A DNA stretch of 58,974 nt from an uncultured virus (IMG/VR IMGVR_UViG_2627853734_000003) (IMGVR_UViG_2627853734_000003:62001-120974), one strand, 5' to 3'; shown: positions 53,536-57,603, counted from the first letter of the stretch. Notes: generated by a model not told the origin, from the sequence alone. Numbers and translations: made by a program.

Positions 53536-54478
53536 ATACACTTTTCGATACACTTTTTATTAAAATTTGCAAGTTTTAAAATTTTAAATTCAAAACTGAG
53601 ATGTAACTGGAAAAATTAGGTAGTGTGTGAGTCGATGTACTAGGGTAAACGCTGAAGCCTGAACCCCACTAAACAATGAGAAATACGCCCCTCTATACTA
53701 AATACTTTAGTGTAGTAAATTACTAAGTTTCAAGACATAACAACCGTTATGTGTTGTATGAATTATGACCAGCTTCTGAAACCGTTGGTATTACTAGGTT
53801 CGAGATAGCTTTAGCGTACTAAAGTTATGATAATTTTAGGTACAAAATAGATAATTTTTATATAAATATAGAAATAATAGAGGAATTTATATTCTTATGT
53901 AATTTAGATTACCATTTAATATTATTTAAGATATTGTATTATATAATAATGATTACTATATAGTGTAATTATAGAAAAATGAAAGTGTTTATTTACCTTG
54001 TTGCAAATATCGAAATAAAAGCTTATATTATCAAGCAAATACTTCTCTATCCATTTTCACTCTACTTTTAACTTTTTACTATATTAGTGTAATTTTACAC
54101 CATGATATATTATCCTTATTTATCTTCATTTATCTTCATTTATCTCAATCAATCTCACTCTAATTATCTATATAAATATAAAAATATTTAAAAAATAAAA
54201 ATTAATAAATAAAATATTTAAAATAATATAATTTTAGATTATAAAATAACATCTTTATATAAATATAATTATAACAGTATGATAAGCAAATAGTAATATG
54301 AGACTTATACTACTATTCTATTTAATCCTATTCAACATTACATAACTATTTACTTAAATTCAATTACCCAAACAAAATAATTACGAAAATAAATTAAAAT
54401 CATTCCATAAATTTATTGATATATGTTTCCATATATGGTATAATATATACATAAGATAAAGAAAGGGGTGAAACAGTT

Positions 54479-54613
54479 ATGGTATTGAAAATATATAGTT
54501 TTTTTACTGGATTGTTTGGTTTATATTTATTATTACTAAAAATAAAAAAGGCTAAATACGAAGCCGAGAAAGCTAAGTATGAAGCCTTAATCAAACAAAA
54601 AGAGTTAAACTAA
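54479..54613 (+). CDS. Cassette 1 ORF-A, 44 aa hydrophobic peptide
   Basis: TTGATA-17-TATAAT promoter, SD GGGGTG; MVLKIYSFFTGLFGLYLLLLKIKK... Confidence 0.7.
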   Translation: MVLKIYSFFTGLFGLYLLLLKIKKAKYEAEKAKYEALIKQKELN

Positions 54614-54678
54614 TAACTCAATGGATGGGGAAATGCCATTCCCCATCTGCTATATATTATACCATAACAATTAATTAT

Positions 54679-54804
54679 ATGAAATATATAATAATAACAT
54701 TAATATTAATCTTAATTACACTATCTATCTCTAAAACTAAAAAAGATACAAAAGTTTTGGAAAAGGAAGTTCATGAGTTAAAGAAAAAAGCTAATCAAGA
54801 TTGA
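54679..54804 (+). CDS. Cassette 1 ORF-B, 41 aa TM peptide without SD
   Basis: MKYIIITLILILITLSISK... Confidence 0.5.
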   Translation: MKYIIITLILILITLSISKTKKDTKVLEKEVHELKKKANQD

Positions 54805-55021
54805 CTTAAATATGTCATATTCCATTATTAAAACTATTAATGTAATCTTAATTTTACGTATGCAGTATATACAATTCTATATATGTCAACTAGATTTATA
54901 CTGCGTGCAATTACATATAATATTAAAATTATACTGATTGAAAACAAATTAAAATTATACAATATATATATTGATAAACCTTTCCATATATGTTATAATA
55001 TATACATAAGGAGGTGAGGAA

Positions 55022-55168
55022 ATGGGGGAGAAAATAAAAGAGTTCCTCAAGTTCACAGATGAAATTATTCATCTACTAGAGAAACTCATGATTAGTTTAA
55101 TATCCTTAATGGGTTGGGTAAGTACTTTTATACTAGCCATAATAGGAATAATTAAACTATTCAATTAA
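55022..55168 (+). CDS. Cassette 2 ORF-A, 48 aa hydrophobic peptide
   Basis: TTGATA-17-TATAAT, SD AAGGAGGTG; MGEKIKEFLK...GWVSTFILAIIGIIKLFN. Confidence 0.7.
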   Translation: MGEKIKEFLKFTDEIIHLLEKLMISLISLMGWVSTFILAIIGIIKLFN

Positions 55169-55242
55169 TTACATAAGGGGTTAAGCTAACACCTTAATCC
55201 CTTATAAAAAAAGTATATCATATTTTTCCCTCATTAATCAAT

Positions 55243-55350
55243 ATGAAAAATTTATGCAAGGATTTAGCTATTAGAATCATACGACTTATAGGATTAATAG
55301 CTTTCTTAATAATATCTTTGTACGCTATTTATCAAACTTTTATTAAGTAA
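55243..55350 (+). CDS. Cassette 2 ORF-B, 35 aa TM peptide without SD
   Basis: MKNLCKDLAIRIIRLIGLIAFLIISLYAIYQTFIK. Confidence 0.5.
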   Translation: MKNLCKDLAIRIIRLIGLIAFLIISLYAIYQTFIK

Positions 55351-55627
55351 ATTGTATATTACAATCTATTATTAAAACTATTAATATAACCCTGATTTTA
55401 CGTATGTAACATACAATCACTATATTTGCTAAAATATTAAATATATCATACCTATAGACTTTATATCTATATAAAATACCTCTTATTTGTGTAAGTTTTT
55501 CCGATACAGAAATGGGAGGTATTTTTATTTATCAATATTTGGAAAAAATTAAATAAAATCCTAAAAAAGTATTGACTTTTTATACTATCGATAGTATAAT
55601 ATAAGTATAGAAAGGAGGTGAGATCGA

Positions 55628-55726
55628 ATGTTAGAACAACTTCAAATATTTCAAACTGTTGTCAGTATAGTTTGCACACTAATAACAACAGTAATCGCAG
55701 TTTTAACTTACATTGATAAAGATTAG
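55628..55726 (+). CDS. Cassette 3 ORF-A, 32 aa hydrophobic peptide
   Basis: TTGACT-17-TATAAT, SD AAGGAGGTG; MLEQLQIFQTVVSIVCTLITTVIAVLTYIDKD. Confidence 0.7.
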   Translation: MLEQLQIFQTVVSIVCTLITTVIAVLTYIDKD

Positions 55727-55786
55727 GGGATTTCCCCTTAATCTTTATAATCTCACCTCATGAAGTTATTCTAACATTTAAACAAT

Positions 55787-55918
55787 ATGAATACAAGAAA
55801 ATTAATAATAAGTTTAGCAGTTTTCAATGTTATCTTTGTAAAAAACTTAATATTAAAAACAATAATTACAATTATATTAGTTGTTATGTACTTTAAATAC
55901 AAAAATAGAAAGGTGTAA
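55787..55918 (+). CDS. Cassette 3 ORF-B, 43 aa TM peptide without SD
   Basis: MNTRKLIISLAVFNVIFV...IILVVMYFKYKNRKV. Confidence 0.5.
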   Translation: MNTRKLIISLAVFNVIFVKNLILKTIITIILVVMYFKYKNRKV

Positions 55919-55920
55919 TC

Positions 55921-56100
55921 ATGGAAACAAACAAACAGACTGAAGCCAATAAAAAGTGGCAAGAAAAAAATAGAGAGCGTACTAGATATCTAAGGGATAG
56001 GTCTACAGCTAGAAGTTTTATAAAAAATAAAGCAACATTGGAAGACTTAAAAGAACTTAAACAACTTATTAAAGAAAAGGAAAATTCACTAAAAAAGTAA
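55921..56100 (+). CDS. Cassette 3 small basic putative DNA-binding protein (59 aa)
   Basis: SD AAGGTG; METNKQTEANKKWQEKNRERTRYLRDRSTARSFIK... Confidence 0.7.
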   Translation: METNKQTEANKKWQEKNRERTRYLRDRSTARSFIKNKATLEDLKELKQLIKEKENSLKK

Positions 56101-56291
56101 ATATATCTCTGGACTTCGTATATATATGTGACACCTCTTATTTGTGAAACCATTTTGGTATAAACAATTAGGAGGTGTTTTTATATTTATAAATTTTTTA
56201 AAATATTATAAAAATTTCCTAAAATATACTTGACTTTCACCTTATGCGGTGATATAATATATACATAAGGTAAAGGAAAGGAGGTGGAAAA

Positions 56292-56396
56292 ATGGTTGAA
56301 AAAATAAAAAAGCTTAATGAACTACTCGCAATAGTCATTAAGCTACTAACAAAAATATATATTATCAAGCTAATATTAATTAAAATTTTTAGTTAA
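56292..56396 (+). CDS. Cassette 4 ORF-A, 34 aa amphipathic peptide
   Basis: TTGACT-17-TATAAT, SD AAGGAGGTG; MVEKIKKLNELLAIVIKLLTKIYIIKLILIKIFS. Confidence 0.7.
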   Translation: MVEKIKKLNELLAIVIKLLTKIYIIKLILIKIFS

Positions 56397-56457
56397 TATT
56401 AGTGGGAGGGTTTAATCCCTCCTATATATATTATATTATTTCAACCATTGATATGCA

Positions 56458-56547
56458 ATGATAAAAGAAAAATTTAAATTAATATGTAGTATAGTATTTA
56501 AACTAATGATAATAGCATTACTAATTTATTTGATAATTTTTAAATAG
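56458..56547 (+). CDS. Cassette 4 ORF-B, 29 aa TM peptide without SD
   Basis: MIKEKFKLICSIVFKLMIIALLIYLIIFK. Confidence 0.5.
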   Translation: MIKEKFKLICSIVFKLMIIALLIYLIIFK

Positions 56548-56560
56548 GAGGAAATTTTAA

Positions 56561-56767
56561 ATGACTAAGAAGTTCGATATAAACGATATAATGGACACAA
56601 AAGAAGCGAGTGAAAAATTTGATATAAATATAAATACTCTAAAAACTATATGTCAAAGAGGAATGCATGGTCTAATTGAAGGTGAAGACTATAGAAAAAC
56701 TGGTCGTGTGTGGTTAATTACAATAGATGGGATGAAAAAAATTCTAAATAGCAAAAAAATGGATTAA
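56561..56767 (+). CDS. Cassette 4 HTH protein
   Basis: IMDTKEASEKFDININTLK...DYRKTGRVWLIT. Confidence 0.8.
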   Translation: MTKKFDINDIMDTKEASEKFDININTLKTICQRGMHGLIEGEDYRKTGRVWLITIDGMKKILNSKKMD

Positions 56768-56833
56768 TCATTATTTTTGTATATAAAAGAAAGGTTGTGA
56801 TTAAATGGATGATAAAAATTTAACGAAACTAGT

Positions 56834-56869
56834 AGAAGCCACTATCTTCTATAAGTGGTGGTAGTTCAC
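56834..56869 (+). mobile_element. IS200/IS605-type right-end remnant
   Basis: agaagccactatcttctataagtggtggtagttcac: subterminal hairpin ending in GTAGTTCAC. Confidence 0.5.
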
Positions 56870-57258
56870 AATTAACTTTGGTTAGTTTTGTACTTACTCT
56901 GATATCTCTTATACTAACTATCATTAATTTTTGTCTTATGCACTATAAATGATAGTATACTTATCGTTATAGCTTATATATATTATTTGTCAGTATAATA
57001 AAAGAGAACATCAAACAAATAAACTTTGACATTATAAAAATAACTAAATTAATACCAGCTTTTGCAATAGCAACAACAAAAGATATTTTTAAAACTATAA
57101 TAGAATATAATATATATTAAAATTTTGAAACCTTGTTTAATACAAGGTTTATTTTTTTTTGCAAAATTATATAATTTTCCCATAATACCTATTTACCTAT
57201 TACGTACAGATGATATAATATAAATATAGTGAGTAAGGAAAAAGGGTGGATGGATTAA

Positions 57259-57370
57259 ATGAAAAAAAAATGTATATAAAGAGTGTACTATCTTAATTTT
57301 AAAAATCTTAGTTAAACTTTGTGTTATAGGATTCTTATTATTTTTAATATTCAAATCAGTTTTTATTTAG
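57259..57370 (+). pseudogene. Cassette 5 ORF-B-type peptide, frameshifted in an A9 tract
   Basis: A8 would give MKKNVYKECTILILKILVKLCVIGFLLFLIFKSVFI*. Confidence 0.45.
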
Positions 57371-57390
57371 AAAAATAGGAGGTACTTAAA

Positions 57391-57603
57391 ATGGATAGAG
57401 CAGAACTTATTAAACTAATACAAGACAATACAATGGAATCTAAAGAAGTAGTAGAGTGTTTAGGTATATCTAAACAACGTTTGTCCGATATGAATAGAAC
57501 GGGTAAGCTTATAGCAGTAAAAAAAGGTATATATCTTAAGCAGGATGTTTTAGCTAGAAAAGAAGAACAAGAAGAACTAAGAAACAAATATTATAAAAGA
57601 TAA
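57391..57603 (+). CDS. Cassette 5 HTH protein
   Basis: ESKEVVECLGISKQRLSDM..GKL; SD AGGAGG. Confidence 0.8.
   Translation: MDRAELIKLIQDNTMESKEVVECLGISKQRLSDMNRTGKLIAVKKGIYLKQDVLARKEEQEELRNKYYKR

What the first reader, a model, noticed from the sequence alone, without database searches (positions are those of the whole stretch)
54415..57603. Array of five cassettes: promoter, microprotein A, hairpin, microprotein B, optional DNA-binding protein
Seen: each cassette has a near-consensus SigA promoter, usually with a palindrome in the spacer (ccatatatgg, tatactatcgatagtata, tcacc-N6-ggtga). Then come a strong SD, a 32-48 aa hydrophobic ORF, a GC-rich hairpin and a 29-43 aa TM ORF; cassettes 3-5 add a different small DNA-binding protein, and cassette 5 is degenerate. 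Peptide sequences are unrelated but the layout is fixed, and most ORFs are below the ORF-track cutoff. Inference: a diversified family of autoregulated membrane-peptide modules (type I TA-like, exclusion or anti-defence).
Basis: partly seen in the sequence, partly recalled or inferred. Interest (0 to 1): 0.72.

Follow-up and report, generated by a model that had tools for sequence, protein, structure and literature searches.

The report
Array of antisense-guarded membrane-peptide operons
Next to the end of a Clostridium botulinum group III neurotoxin phage-plasmid lies a row of tiny self-contained operons, each making two membrane peptides, the first apparently held in check by an antisense RNA and often by its own repressor; the same design occurs in phages of Listeria, Streptococcus and other clostridia but has apparently not been described as a unit.

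Summary
Four intact cassettes and one decayed cassette lie at 54416-57603. Each has a near-consensus sigma-A promoter with a palindrome in the spacer, a strong SD, a 32-48 aa membrane peptide A, a GC hairpin and a 29-43 aa peptide B. Cassettes 3-5 add a small DNA-binding protein C.

It would give a 110-180 nt antisense RNA that starts at the hairpin and ends at a terminator inside ORF A.

The same layout occurs in Clostridium, Paraclostridium, Listeria and Streptococcus phages and plasmids. In the Listeria copy the antisense RNA is the known sRNA rli48 (Rfam, 179.7 bits), which the literature pairs with rli98.

C3 belongs to the Aca13 family. Aca13 is a characterised repressor that binds inverted repeats between -35 and -10. 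The operators of C3, C4 and C5 travel with their regulators across loci while the cargo varies.

Best reading (0.55): type I toxin-antitoxin-like modules under a double lock of antisense RNA and autorepressor, with a second, SD-less, paralogue-like peptide B. Main rival: early-pulse anti-defence or exclusion cargo. No RNA or toxicity data exist for this phage. This is a new variant of a known kind.

The parts
54416..54444 (+). P1: TTGATA-17-TATAAT (TG-extended), spacer palindrome CCATATATGG
54479..54613 (+). A1, 44 aa: N-terminal TM segment plus lysine-rich tail, strong SD
   Evidence: annotated in NZ_CP063960.1
54622..54649 (.). GC hairpin 1: 3' of A1 on the mRNA and 5' end of the predicted antisense RNA
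54538..54650 (-). Predicted antisense RNA 1 (about 113 nt): 5' hairpin, long stem 54548-54588, U tract 54538-54547
   Evidence: fold; (stem -21.2 kcal/mol)
54656..54683 (-). Antisense promoter 1: TTCATA-16-TATAAT with TG extension
   Evidence: same box in the P. sordellii cassette
54679..54804 (+). B1, 41 aa: TM segment plus charged tail, no SD
   Evidence: annotated in NZ_CP063960.1
54971..54999 (+). P2: TTGATA-17-TATAAT, same operator type as P1
55022..55168 (+). A2, 48 aa: amphipathic EKIK N-terminus plus C-terminal TM segment; phrog_7712
   Evidence: (3-codon in-frame indel between alleles)
55173..55205 (.). GC hairpin 2 (13 bp)
55031..55207 (-). Predicted antisense RNA 2 (about 177 nt): 5' hairpin, terminator stem 55040-55087, invariant UUUUAUUUU
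   Evidence: compensatory pair UA:4/CG:3; G-U pairs valid only on the minus strand
55212..55241 (-). Antisense promoter 2: TTGATT-18-TATACT with TG extension; 18-nt spacing kept in 4 phage-plasmids
55243..55350 (+). B2, 35 aa TM peptide, no SD; conserved as an ORF
   Evidence: variable sites by codon position 5, 1, 8
55473..55535 (+). Intrinsic terminator ahead of cassette 3 (arms 55473-55493 and 55505-55525, then a T run)
   Evidence: (I19)
55572..55600 (+). P3: TTGACT-17-TATAAT with 18-bp palindrome TATACTATCGATAGTATA (Aca13-type inverted repeat overlapping -10)
55628..55726 (+). A3, 32 aa TM peptide; stop codon lies inside the hairpin arm
55714..55746 (.). GC hairpin 3
55643..55759 (-). Predicted antisense RNA 3: -10 TAGAAT with TG at 55766-55774, stem 55655-55692, only a weak U tract
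   Evidence: no terminator by the criterion
55787..55918 (+). B3, 43 aa TM peptide, no SD; stops 2 nt before C3
55921..56100 (+). C3, 59 aa: Aca13-family two-helix repressor
56133..56185 (+). Terminator of cassette 3 (ACCTCT...AGGAGGT hairpin plus T run)
   Evidence: (D3)
56230..56258 (+). P4: TTGACT-17-TATAAT with operator TCACC-N6-GGTGA
56292..56396 (+). A4, 34 aa amphipathic/TM peptide (EKIKK family)
56402..56425 (.). GC hairpin 4
56299..56423 (-). Predicted antisense RNA 4 (about 125 nt): 5' hairpin, terminator stem 56311-56344, U tract templated by the EKIKK codons
   Evidence: compensatory change in the C. butyricum copy (my reading)
56430..56458 (-). Antisense promoter 4: TTGCAT-17-TATAAT (no TG)
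   Evidence: read; not listed (-35 scores only 3 of 6)
56458..56547 (+). B4, 29 aa TM peptide, no SD
   Evidence: (4 synonymous and 4 conservative changes; stop TAG to TAA)
56561..56767 (+). C4, 68 aa HTH_59 protein, probable autorepressor of P4
57128..57160 (+). Intrinsic terminator ahead of cassette 5
57192..57219 (+). P5: TTTACC-16-TATAAT with TTACGTA-type operator
57247..57370 (+). Decayed cassette 5: first codons of A5 fused to B5 by a deletion of about 180 bases; B5 frameshifted in an A9 run
57391..57603 (+). C5, 70 aa winged-HTH / excisionase-like protein (phrog_4691; AbiEi N-terminal domain-like)

Best explanation
Each cassette is an independent moron-type operon of the phage-plasmid. 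Shown from sequence: a near-consensus sigma-A promoter drives an A-B(-C) transcript, A has a strong SD and is a membrane peptide, and a GC hairpin follows A. Inferred from comparison: directly 3' of the hairpin a convergent, mostly TG-extended -10 promoter fires back. It would make a 110-180 nt cis-antisense RNA whose 5' end is the hairpin and whose terminator lies in the first third to half of ORF A. In the EKIKK family, the lysine codons at the start of A template the terminator's U tract. This RNA would pair with the whole A message and block or destroy it. That is the logic of a type I toxin-antitoxin pair with complete overlap. A second lock is transcriptional: C binds the palindrome between -35 and -10 and represses its own operon. 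C is Aca13-family in cassette 3, HTH_59 in cassette 4 and a winged HTH in cassette 5. Cassettes 1 and 2 share one operator and would depend on a regulator encoded elsewhere. B is a translated membrane peptide that resembles its own A but has no SD and is not covered by the antisense RNA. I infer that it is a low-level membrane partner or modulator of A, comparable to an antiholin. Most likely role (inferred): toxic peptides kept silent in the carrier cell, which stabilise an easily lost plasmid-prophage and/or act in a short burst when the genome end carrying them enters a cell.
For: Layout and coding. The promoter-SD-A-hairpin-B order occurs 4 times here. A2 alleles differ by an in-frame 3-codon indel. 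B2 and B4 keep their frames with synonymous-rich change: codon-position counts are 5, 1, 8 for B2 and 2, 2, 8 for the Listeria B group.

Conservation. The same order is found in a C. butyricum prophage, a P. sordellii plasmid, Listeria phage FHC15313-PLM26 and Streptococcus phage Javan5. By automatic criteria, 24 of 42 non-redundant Aca13-anchored IMG/VR loci have A, hairpin and B, and 6 more have hairpin and B.

Antisense promoter. TGNTANNNT lies on the minus strand within 45 nt after the hairpin in 26 of 28 cassettes and on the plus strand in 0 of 28; shuffles predict 4.8.

Antisense terminator. A stem of -8 kcal/mol or stronger followed by a T tract lies inside ORF A on the minus strand in 24 of 28 cassettes, against 3 of 28 on the plus strand. 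The mean is -16.4 against -6.9 kcal/mol in shuffles. Three of the 4 window cassettes have clean terminators. In the A2 family the stem has a compensatory pair (UA:4, CG:3) and G-U pairs that would be A-C mismatches on the plus strand.

Experimental anchor. Rfam rli48 matches the minus strand of the Listeria cassette over its full length (179.7 bits, gathering score 100), with a 5' GC hairpin, a long stem and a U tract. rli48 and rli98 are listed as an antisense pair and placed in the A118-like prophage (passages seen in PMC4179725 and PMC3105390).

Repressors. C3 matches the Aca13 domain of AcrIIA32 at E 1e-18. Aca13 binds an inverted repeat between -35 and -10 (PMC12282945, passages and supplement part 2). 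The TATACTAT..ATAGTATA repeat or its Listeria variant sits in most promoters found upstream of Aca13 homologues. The P4 operator half-sites change symmetrically with the C4 allele.

Context. The cassettes lie in a plasmid-prophage with a TubZ partition gene 8 kb away. In small plasmid-prophages they lie between parM and rep. Type I TA modules stabilise C. difficile prophages (PMC7699646, passages).
Against: There are no transcript, translation or toxicity data for this phage-plasmid.

The window's own sequence (read through its near-identical copy L002) gives no Rfam match at E up to 1, so the antisense RNA here rests on analogy and motifs.

The Rfam rli48 model starts about 20 nt upstream of the hairpin and includes my predicted -10. 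Either the tiling-array boundary is loose or the true start site differs.

Cassette 3 has only a weak U tract, and cassette 4 lacks the TG extension.

Lysine-rich coding makes minus-strand T runs likely, which inflates the strand asymmetry.

The 28 cassettes include close relatives and are not independent.

B has no place in a classical type I TA system, and its translation without an SD is unexplained.

The same promoter-operator-regulator chassis also carries soluble small proteins followed by a similar hairpin, so the hairpin may have a more general role.

The Aca13 chassis is otherwise known from anti-CRISPR operons.
Confidence: 0.55

Rival explanations
1. The cassettes carry early-pulse cargo for anti-defence, host takeover or superinfection exclusion. 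The Aca-type chassis gives a burst of A and B when the genome end enters a cell. The antisense RNA and repressor only end the pulse. The peptides act on host membrane targets or on incoming phages and are not addiction toxins.
For: C3 is Aca13-family with the operator architecture of acr-aca13 operons. The Listeria cassette sits beside AcrIIA3 and AcrIIA2 genes and the Streptococcus one beside paratox and an Abi gene. The array starts about 200 bases from a stretch homologous to the c-st terminal repeat region. The same chassis carries unrelated soluble cargo. The promoters and SDs are very strong.
Against: Known Acr proteins are soluble. A 37-aa hydrophobic peptide upstream of aca13 (Cand3) did not inhibit the three Cas9s tested (PMC12282945, main-text passages and supplement part 2). 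rli48 and its partner rli98 were catalogued by transcriptome studies in a strain carrying the prophage. Complete antisense cover of one ORF is the hallmark of toxic products.
Confidence: 0.3
2. The hairpin is only an intercistronic attenuator or mRNA-stabilising element that sets high A and low B-C expression. The minus-strand promoter-like boxes in this very AT-rich DNA are not used here.
For: Promoter-like sites at 9 of 12 or better are at chance frequency in this region (46 against 49.0). The scan lists hairpins 1, 3 and 4 as terminator-like with T-rich tails. Cargo with soluble first ORFs has a similar hairpin followed by T-rich sequence.
Against: The box is strand-specific (26 of 28 minus against 0 of 28 plus) and is kept in GC-richer Listeria and Streptococcus copies, where no U tract follows the hairpin. 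rli48 exists. Minus-strand terminators show covariation.
Confidence: 0.08
3. A and B are an accessory holin/antiholin-like pair that tunes lysis timing.
For: A and B of one cassette resemble each other. Many homologous cassettes lie directly behind holin and endolysin genes. Weak PHROG hits to holin and spanin families have E 0.03-0.17.
Against: No hit passes any family threshold. In this window and its close relatives the cassettes lie near the genome end, and in the small plasmid-prophages between parM and rep, not behind lysis genes. They have their own sigma-A promoters and repressors rather than late control.
Confidence: 0.05

Closest known systems
Type I toxin-antitoxin systems: prophage-borne pairs of C. 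difficile (CD0977.1/RCd11) and B. subtilis, and fully overlapping Ibs/Sib of E. coli (Ibs/Sib and the B. subtilis details are recalled, not from a call)
   Same: Small TM peptide of 60 aa or less with a charged tail; convergent cis-antisense RNA; location on prophages and plasmids; tandem arrays; proposed role in element maintenance.
   Different: The toxin-like gene heads an operon that also encodes a second, paralogue-like membrane peptide and often a DNA-binding autorepressor. The operon has an operator-bearing consensus promoter. No sequence similarity to any listed family was found. Toxicity is untested.
Listeria sRNA rli48 (Rfam RF01479) and its antisense partner rli98
   Same: The Listeria homologue of the cassette carries rli48 exactly where the antisense RNA is predicted, with a 5' GC hairpin, long stem and U tract. 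rli98 is listed as its antisense partner.
   Different: The window's sequences do not match the Rfam model. In the papers I could search, rli48 and rli98 are treated as sRNAs, with no peptide, TA or Aca link mentioned.
acr-aca13 operons (AcrIIA32/Aca13, Streptococcus; NAR 2025, PMC12282945)
   Same: C3 is homologous to Aca13 (E 1e-18). The inverted repeat lies between -35 and -10 and overlaps -10. The regulator gene sits at the operon's 3' end. The cargo is variable.
   Different: The cargo here is two membrane peptides plus an antisense RNA, not a soluble Acr. No anti-CRISPR activity is known for it, and one such peptide (Cand3) was negative against three Cas9s.
Early or host-takeover gene clusters at phage genome ends (SPO1 terminal redundancy, T5 pre-early region; recalled, not from a call)
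   Same: Many very small genes, each with a strong host-type promoter and SD, lie next to the terminal repeat.
   Different: Those clusters are not described with per-gene antisense RNAs and autorepressors, and there is no homology.

Membership tests
Type I toxin-antitoxin system | Small (under 60 aa) hydrophobic peptide with a TM segment | tested here: met
   A1-A4 are 32-48 aa with a best 17-residue Kyte-Doolittle window of 1.6-2.5
Type I toxin-antitoxin system | Cis-encoded antisense RNA overlapping the toxin mRNA | tested here: inconclusive
   Conserved minus-strand extended -10 (26 of 28) and terminator (24 of 28). rli48 matches the Listeria homologue. No RNA data exist for the window, and its near-identical copy L002 gives no Rfam hit
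Type I toxin-antitoxin system | Peptide is toxic when expressed and the RNA neutralises it | not testable with these tools
   Needs bench work
Known type I toxin sequence families (Fst/Ldr, TxpA, Hok and others) | Profile match to a curated family | tested here: not met
   No Pfam, NCBIfam or PADLOC family at or above its cut-off for any A or B. Only A2 matches phrog_7712, which has unknown function
Rfam rli48 (RF01479) | Covariance-model match at the gathering score | tested here: not met
   The Listeria locus scores 179.7 bits. L002, a near-identical copy of the window region, gives no match at E up to 1
Aca13 (anti-CRISPR-associated repressor) | Sequence homology to the Aca13 domain | tested here: met
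   A profile of 31 C3 homologues against 8ye6_B residues 90-139 gives E 1e-18 and 70.1 bits. The AF2 model has two helices, pLDDT 91.2
Aca13 (anti-CRISPR-associated repressor) | Inverted repeat between -35 and -10 of its own operon promoter | tested here: met
   P3 carries TATACTATCGATAGTATA. The same or variant repeat is in most promoters found upstream of homologues. Published repeats are of the same type
acr-aca operon | An upstream gene inhibits a CRISPR-Cas system | not testable with these tools
   A and B are membrane peptides. A comparable peptide (Cand3) was negative against 3 Cas9s in PMC12282945
HTH_59 (PF20038) regulators | Pfam match above the gathering score | tested here: met
   C4 scores 51.9 bits against a cut-off of 27. 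The operator covaries with the allele and recurs in L097
Holin / antiholin | Match to a holin family, or a position in a lysis cassette under late control | tested here: not met
   Only weak PHROG hits, E 0.03-0.17. The cassettes have their own sigma-A promoters

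The most novel reading that the evidence does not exclude
A widespread, so far unrecognised three-layer module of Firmicutes phages and plasmids: a type I toxin whose ORF is fully covered by an rli48-like antisense RNA, a paralogous SD-less partner peptide, and an Aca-type autorepressor. The parts are shuffled as independent blocks. If so, 'Aca' markers used for anti-CRISPR discovery often guard antisense-controlled membrane toxins, the Listeria sRNA pair rli48/rli98 is such a system, and the neurotoxin phage-plasmids carry an array of them at the genome end as combined addiction and first-entry devices.
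Probability: 0.33. Interest if true: 0.85.

Novelty: new variant of a known kind. Interest (0 to 1): 0.7.

Why it matters
The finding links three literatures that have not been joined: type I toxin-antitoxin systems, orphan Listeria sRNAs, and anti-CRISPR-associated repressors.

It gives a testable function for rli48/rli98. It suggests why some 'Acr candidates' found by guilt-by-association are tiny hydrophobic peptides that fail Cas9 assays.

It offers a recognisable sequence signature for finding unannotated microprotein genes in AT-rich phage genomes: operator promoter, SD-led peptide, GC hairpin, reverse TGnTAnnnT box, then an SD-less peptide. In the near-identical annotated record NZ_CP063960.1, 5 of the 11 ORFs here (A3, A4, B2, B3, B4) are unannotated.

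For the group III neurotoxin phage-plasmids, which are carried as easily lost plasmid-prophages, an array of addiction-type modules would bear on how stably toxigenicity is kept.

Tried and rejected
- RNA evidence: no RNA holder is listed among public runs for this stretch. Laying four RNA runs with the same species label gave 0, 0, 0 and 1 reads, which is no test.
- No whole genome is held for the window.
- Family searches of A and B peptides found nothing at threshold in Pfam, NCBIfam and PADLOC. The ESM Atlas gave only unnamed clusters at 0.83 or below for A2 and nothing for A1.
- Rfam found nothing on L002 (the near-identical copy of the array region) at E up to 1. A gathering-threshold scan of the whole window gave only RAGATH-18 and two tRNAs elsewhere.
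- Earlier-scan notes: three look-ups gave nothing relevant.
- Regulator for the P1/P2 operator: the motif occurs only at P1 and P2 plus three one-mismatch sites (one of them the reverse reading of the P1 palindrome); 3 of 100 shuffles gave at least as many matches. No regulator was identified.
- I first read cassette 5 as a frameshifted A5. Comparison with NZ_CP063966.1 shows it is a deletion of A5, hairpin and antisense promoter, plus a frameshifted B5.
- I considered the hairpins as plus-strand terminators and rejected this as the main role, because GC-richer homologues have no U tract after the hairpin.
- Literature: searches for rli48 (6 papers), rli98 (4, or 5 with match 'anywhere'), 'type I toxin-antitoxin' with C. 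botulinum and phage (11), and with Listeria, prophage and antisense (25, of which 15 were listed) found no description of this composite module. Subscription journals are not covered, and the supplements of the Listeria papers were not read.

Full report
**What the window is.** The stretch 54300-58100 is 99.9% identical over its full length to plasmid p1 of C. botulinum strain 3859/11 (NZ_CP063960.1, positions 662-4461). It is 96% identical over its first 59% to p1BKT015925, 86.8% over 35% to NZ_CP063966.1, and about 81% over 15% to phage c-st. These are the group III neurotoxin phage-plasmids. Window 53809-54211 matches c-st 173-562, which overlaps that phage's annotated 404-bp terminal direct repeat. 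The array therefore starts about 200 bases from the equivalent of a genome end. A TubZ partition gene (45101-46171), a ParB-like gene, an Mrr nuclease and an FtsK-like gene lie upstream.

**Checking the observation.**
- Four + strand promoters score 11 of 12 with 17-nt spacers and a fifth scores 10 of 12.
- Promoter-like sites at 9 of 12 are at chance level in this AT-rich DNA (46 against 49.0). Sites at 11 of 12 are not: 4 are observed against 0.26 expected, and all 4 are followed by an SD and a start codon against none in 500 shuffles.
- A1-A4 (44, 48, 32, 34 aa) and B1-B4 (41, 35, 43, 29 aa) all contain a strongly hydrophobic 17-residue window.
- GC hairpins separate A from B.
- C4 is a Pfam HTH_59 protein. 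C5 matches an 'excisionase' PHROG and, more weakly, AbiEi N-terminal domains.
- In the near-identical record, PGAP annotates A1, B1, A2, C3, C4 and C5 but not A3, A4, B2, B3 or B4.

**Cassette 5.** The intact form is in NZ_CP063966.1. It has a promoter, a 44-aa A5 of the EKIKK family, a hairpin, a reverse TGTTATAAT box, a 36-aa B5, C5, and a further B1-like ORF that does have an SD. The window has lost about 180 bases, which joins the first A5 codons to the B5 start. Its B5 is interrupted by an A9 run where the relative has A8. The extra ORF after C5 is reduced to its last codons.

**Are A and B genes?**
- In cassette 2, four phage-plasmids share the promoter, SD and N-terminus of A2, but carry two diverged alleles of its TM half that differ by an in-frame 9-base indel.
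- B2 is conserved from ATG to stop, and conservation ends right after the stop. Its variable sites fall 5, 1, 8 by codon position.
- B4 differs from the BKT015925 copy by 4 synonymous and 4 conservative codon changes, and its stop changes from TAG to TAA.
- The Listeria B group varies 2, 2, 8 by codon position.
- B therefore looks translated. Yet 27 of 30 B ORFs in other loci, and all four here, have no SD-like word upstream. The other 3 have a full SD.
- A shows less third-position bias (6, 5, 7 in Listeria), as expected if the DNA also encodes a structured antisense RNA.

**The missed feature.**
- On the minus strand, directly after each hairpin, sits a -10 box, mostly with the TG extension. 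In the window the sites are TTCATA-16-TATAAT and TTGATT-18-TATACT (both listed), TGTTAGAAT and TTGCAT-17-TATAAT (my reading).
- The 18-nt spacing of the cassette 2 site is preserved in four phage-plasmids despite small indels.
- Folding the minus strand gives, for cassettes 1, 2 and 4, a 5' hairpin and a strong stem followed by UUUUAUUUU-type tracts inside ORF A. Cassette 3 has a stem with a weak tract.
- In the EKIKK family, the lysine codons at the start of A template the U tract.

**Conservation elsewhere.** Weak DNA hits led to the same layout in four other records:
- a C. butyricum prophage, which has the P3-type palindrome, A4-like and B4-like peptides and a C3 homologue;
- a P. sordellii plasmid, whose C is a PemI/AbrB-like protein;
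- Listeria phage FHC15313-PLM26, where the cassette lies beside AcrIIA3 and AcrIIA2;
- Streptococcus phage Javan5, where it lies beside paratox.

A profile of C3 homologues found 177 relatives in IMG/VR. Eighty loci were kept, and 73 of these had enough upstream sequence, reducing to 42 non-redundant upstream regions. By automatic criteria:
- 24 of the 42 have an SD-led A of 18-80 aa, a GC hairpin and B;
- 6 have hairpin and B, but A was not called;
- 4 have the C gene directly behind an endolysin terminator with no A or B;
- 2 are ambiguous;
- 6 had no perfect-stem hairpin.

On these 24 cassettes plus the 4 window cassettes:
- TGNTANNNT lies on the minus strand within 45 nt after the hairpin in 26 of 28 and on the plus strand in 0 of 28; 4.8 are expected from shuffles;
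- a terminator-like stem plus T tract lies inside A on the minus strand in 24 of 28, against 3 of 28 on the plus strand.

Two caveats apply. The cassettes include close relatives, and lysine-rich coding favours minus-strand T runs. In the A2 family, RNAalifold on the minus strand recovers the 5' hairpin and the terminator stem. The stem has one compensatory pair (UA:4, CG:3) and two pairs with G-U that would be mismatches on the plus strand.

**Experimental anchor.** Rfam's rli48 model matches the minus strand of the Listeria cassette end to end (179.7 bits, gathering score 100). Its consensus structure is the predicted 5' GC hairpin, long stem and U tract. A review lists rli98 and rli48 as sRNAs antisense to each other, and another paper places both in the A118-like prophage (passages seen). 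None of the papers found with 'rli48' or 'rli98' mentions a peptide, a toxin or a repressor at this locus. The Rfam model's 5' end includes my -10 box, so the exact start site is uncertain. The window's sequences do not match the model.

**The regulators.**
- A profile of 31 C3 homologues hits one solved chain, 8ye6_B (AcrIIA32), residues 90-139, at E 1e-18. PMC12282945 shows that this C-terminal part is Aca13. Aca13 is a non-HTH helical repressor that binds an inverted repeat between -35 and -10 of acr-aca13 promoters (passages).
- My AF2 model of C3 is two helices with pLDDT 91.2.
- The P3 palindrome, or variants differing in the central bases, occupies the spacer and overlaps -10 in most promoters found upstream of C3 homologues. 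The Listeria variant is of the same type as repeats printed in that paper's supplement.
- In BKT015925 the P4 operator changes from TCACC..GGTGA to TCAAC..GTTGA, symmetrically, together with a different C4 allele. A hybrid promoter remnant with the 3' part of the window-type C4 lies next to it, which shows cassette recombination.
- A C4 homologue (63% identity) with a TCACC..GGTGG operator controls a soluble protein of about 170 aa in another phage. C5 homologues with TTACGTA-type operators control either A-hairpin-B cargo or soluble cargo.
- So the chassis (promoter, operator, regulator) and the cargo (A, antisense RNA, B) assort independently.

**A and B resemble each other within a cassette.** Both have a TM segment plus a coiled charged tail in the A1/B1 type. 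Both have an 'LIGxI' TM segment in the A2/B2 type, and phrog_7712 hits A2 at 4.8e-9 and B2 at 0.015. This suggests that B arose from A and may interact with it. The interaction could not be tested.

**Interpretation.** The best-supported mechanism is a doubly locked membrane-peptide operon. Complete antisense cover of A follows type I TA logic, and an Aca-type autorepressor acts on the promoter. I favour a toxin-antitoxin or addiction role at 0.55. The reasons are the peptide type, the antisense design, the cataloguing of both Listeria RNAs in a prophage-carrying strain, the tandem array, the plasmid-prophage setting, and the joint loss of A5 and its antisense promoter. The main rival, at 0.3, is an early-pulse anti-defence or exclusion function, suggested by the Aca13 chassis, the anti-CRISPR neighbours and the position at the genome end. 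One published test of a comparable peptide (Cand3) against three Cas9s was negative. The role of B, and how it is translated, remains unexplained.

**Distribution.** The Aca13-family gene was found in 7 of 400 scored Bacillota genomes, and in 5 of 277 genera. This fits sporadic carriage on mobile elements.

Noticed in passing
window 54811-54869, 55355-55413, 57630-57688 (also c-st, L001 about 948-1030): A repeat of about 60 nt follows cassettes 1, 2 and 5. It has a conserved box ACTATTAAT..TTTACGTAT and then an AT-rich imperfect palindrome, with 3 pairs changed on both sides among 4 copies. The TTTACGTA part resembles the P5/C5-type operator, so it may be a degenerate promoter/operator or a regulator binding site.
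   Followed up: partly
window 53809-54211: This AT-rich non-coding stretch is 79% identical to c-st 173-562, which overlaps that phage's annotated terminal direct repeat. It also contains a short tandem repeat, TATCTTCATT, at 54111-54141.
   Followed up: partly
window 55473-55535 and 56133-56185; L007 about 3540-3600, L008 about 3000-3050: The cassette terminators (ACCTCTTATTTGTG...AGGAGGT plus a T run) are homologous to a hairpin that, in small plasmid-prophages, sits directly in front of the replication (DnaD-like) gene and would sequester its SD. Here no start codon follows.
   Followed up: no
L003 (NC_015417.1) 3140-3250; L003 3796-5533; L004 2728-4080: The relatives show cassette shuffling and insertions. 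BKT015925 has a hybrid P4-like remnant fused to the 3' part of the window-type C4 and an IS607/TnpB element after the array. BKT2873 has an IscB gene there.
   Followed up: partly
window 57791-58678 and 58950-58974 (continues in L005 925-1285): The row of strong-promoter units continues with different cargo. One unit has TTGACG-17-TATTAT, a 55-aa ORF and a 188-aa protein with an N-terminal hydrophobic segment. The next has a 12-of-12 promoter with palindrome TATACTC-N4-GAGTATA and a 32-aa soluble ORF.
   Followed up: no
window 20487-20556 (-), 34298-34369 (-), 34413-34503 (-): Rfam finds a RAGATH-18 RNA (64.6 bits) and two tRNA genes in the phage-plasmid backbone.
   Followed up: no
window 57603-57640 compared with L004 2003-2128: In BKT2873 a B1-like 41-aa TM peptide with its own SD follows C5. 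The window keeps only the SD and the last codons of it.
   Followed up: partly
L009 2330-2400 (Listeria phage): The neighbouring anti-CRISPR operon has the same promoter design: TTGACT, a palindrome in the spacer, then TATAAT.
   Followed up: no
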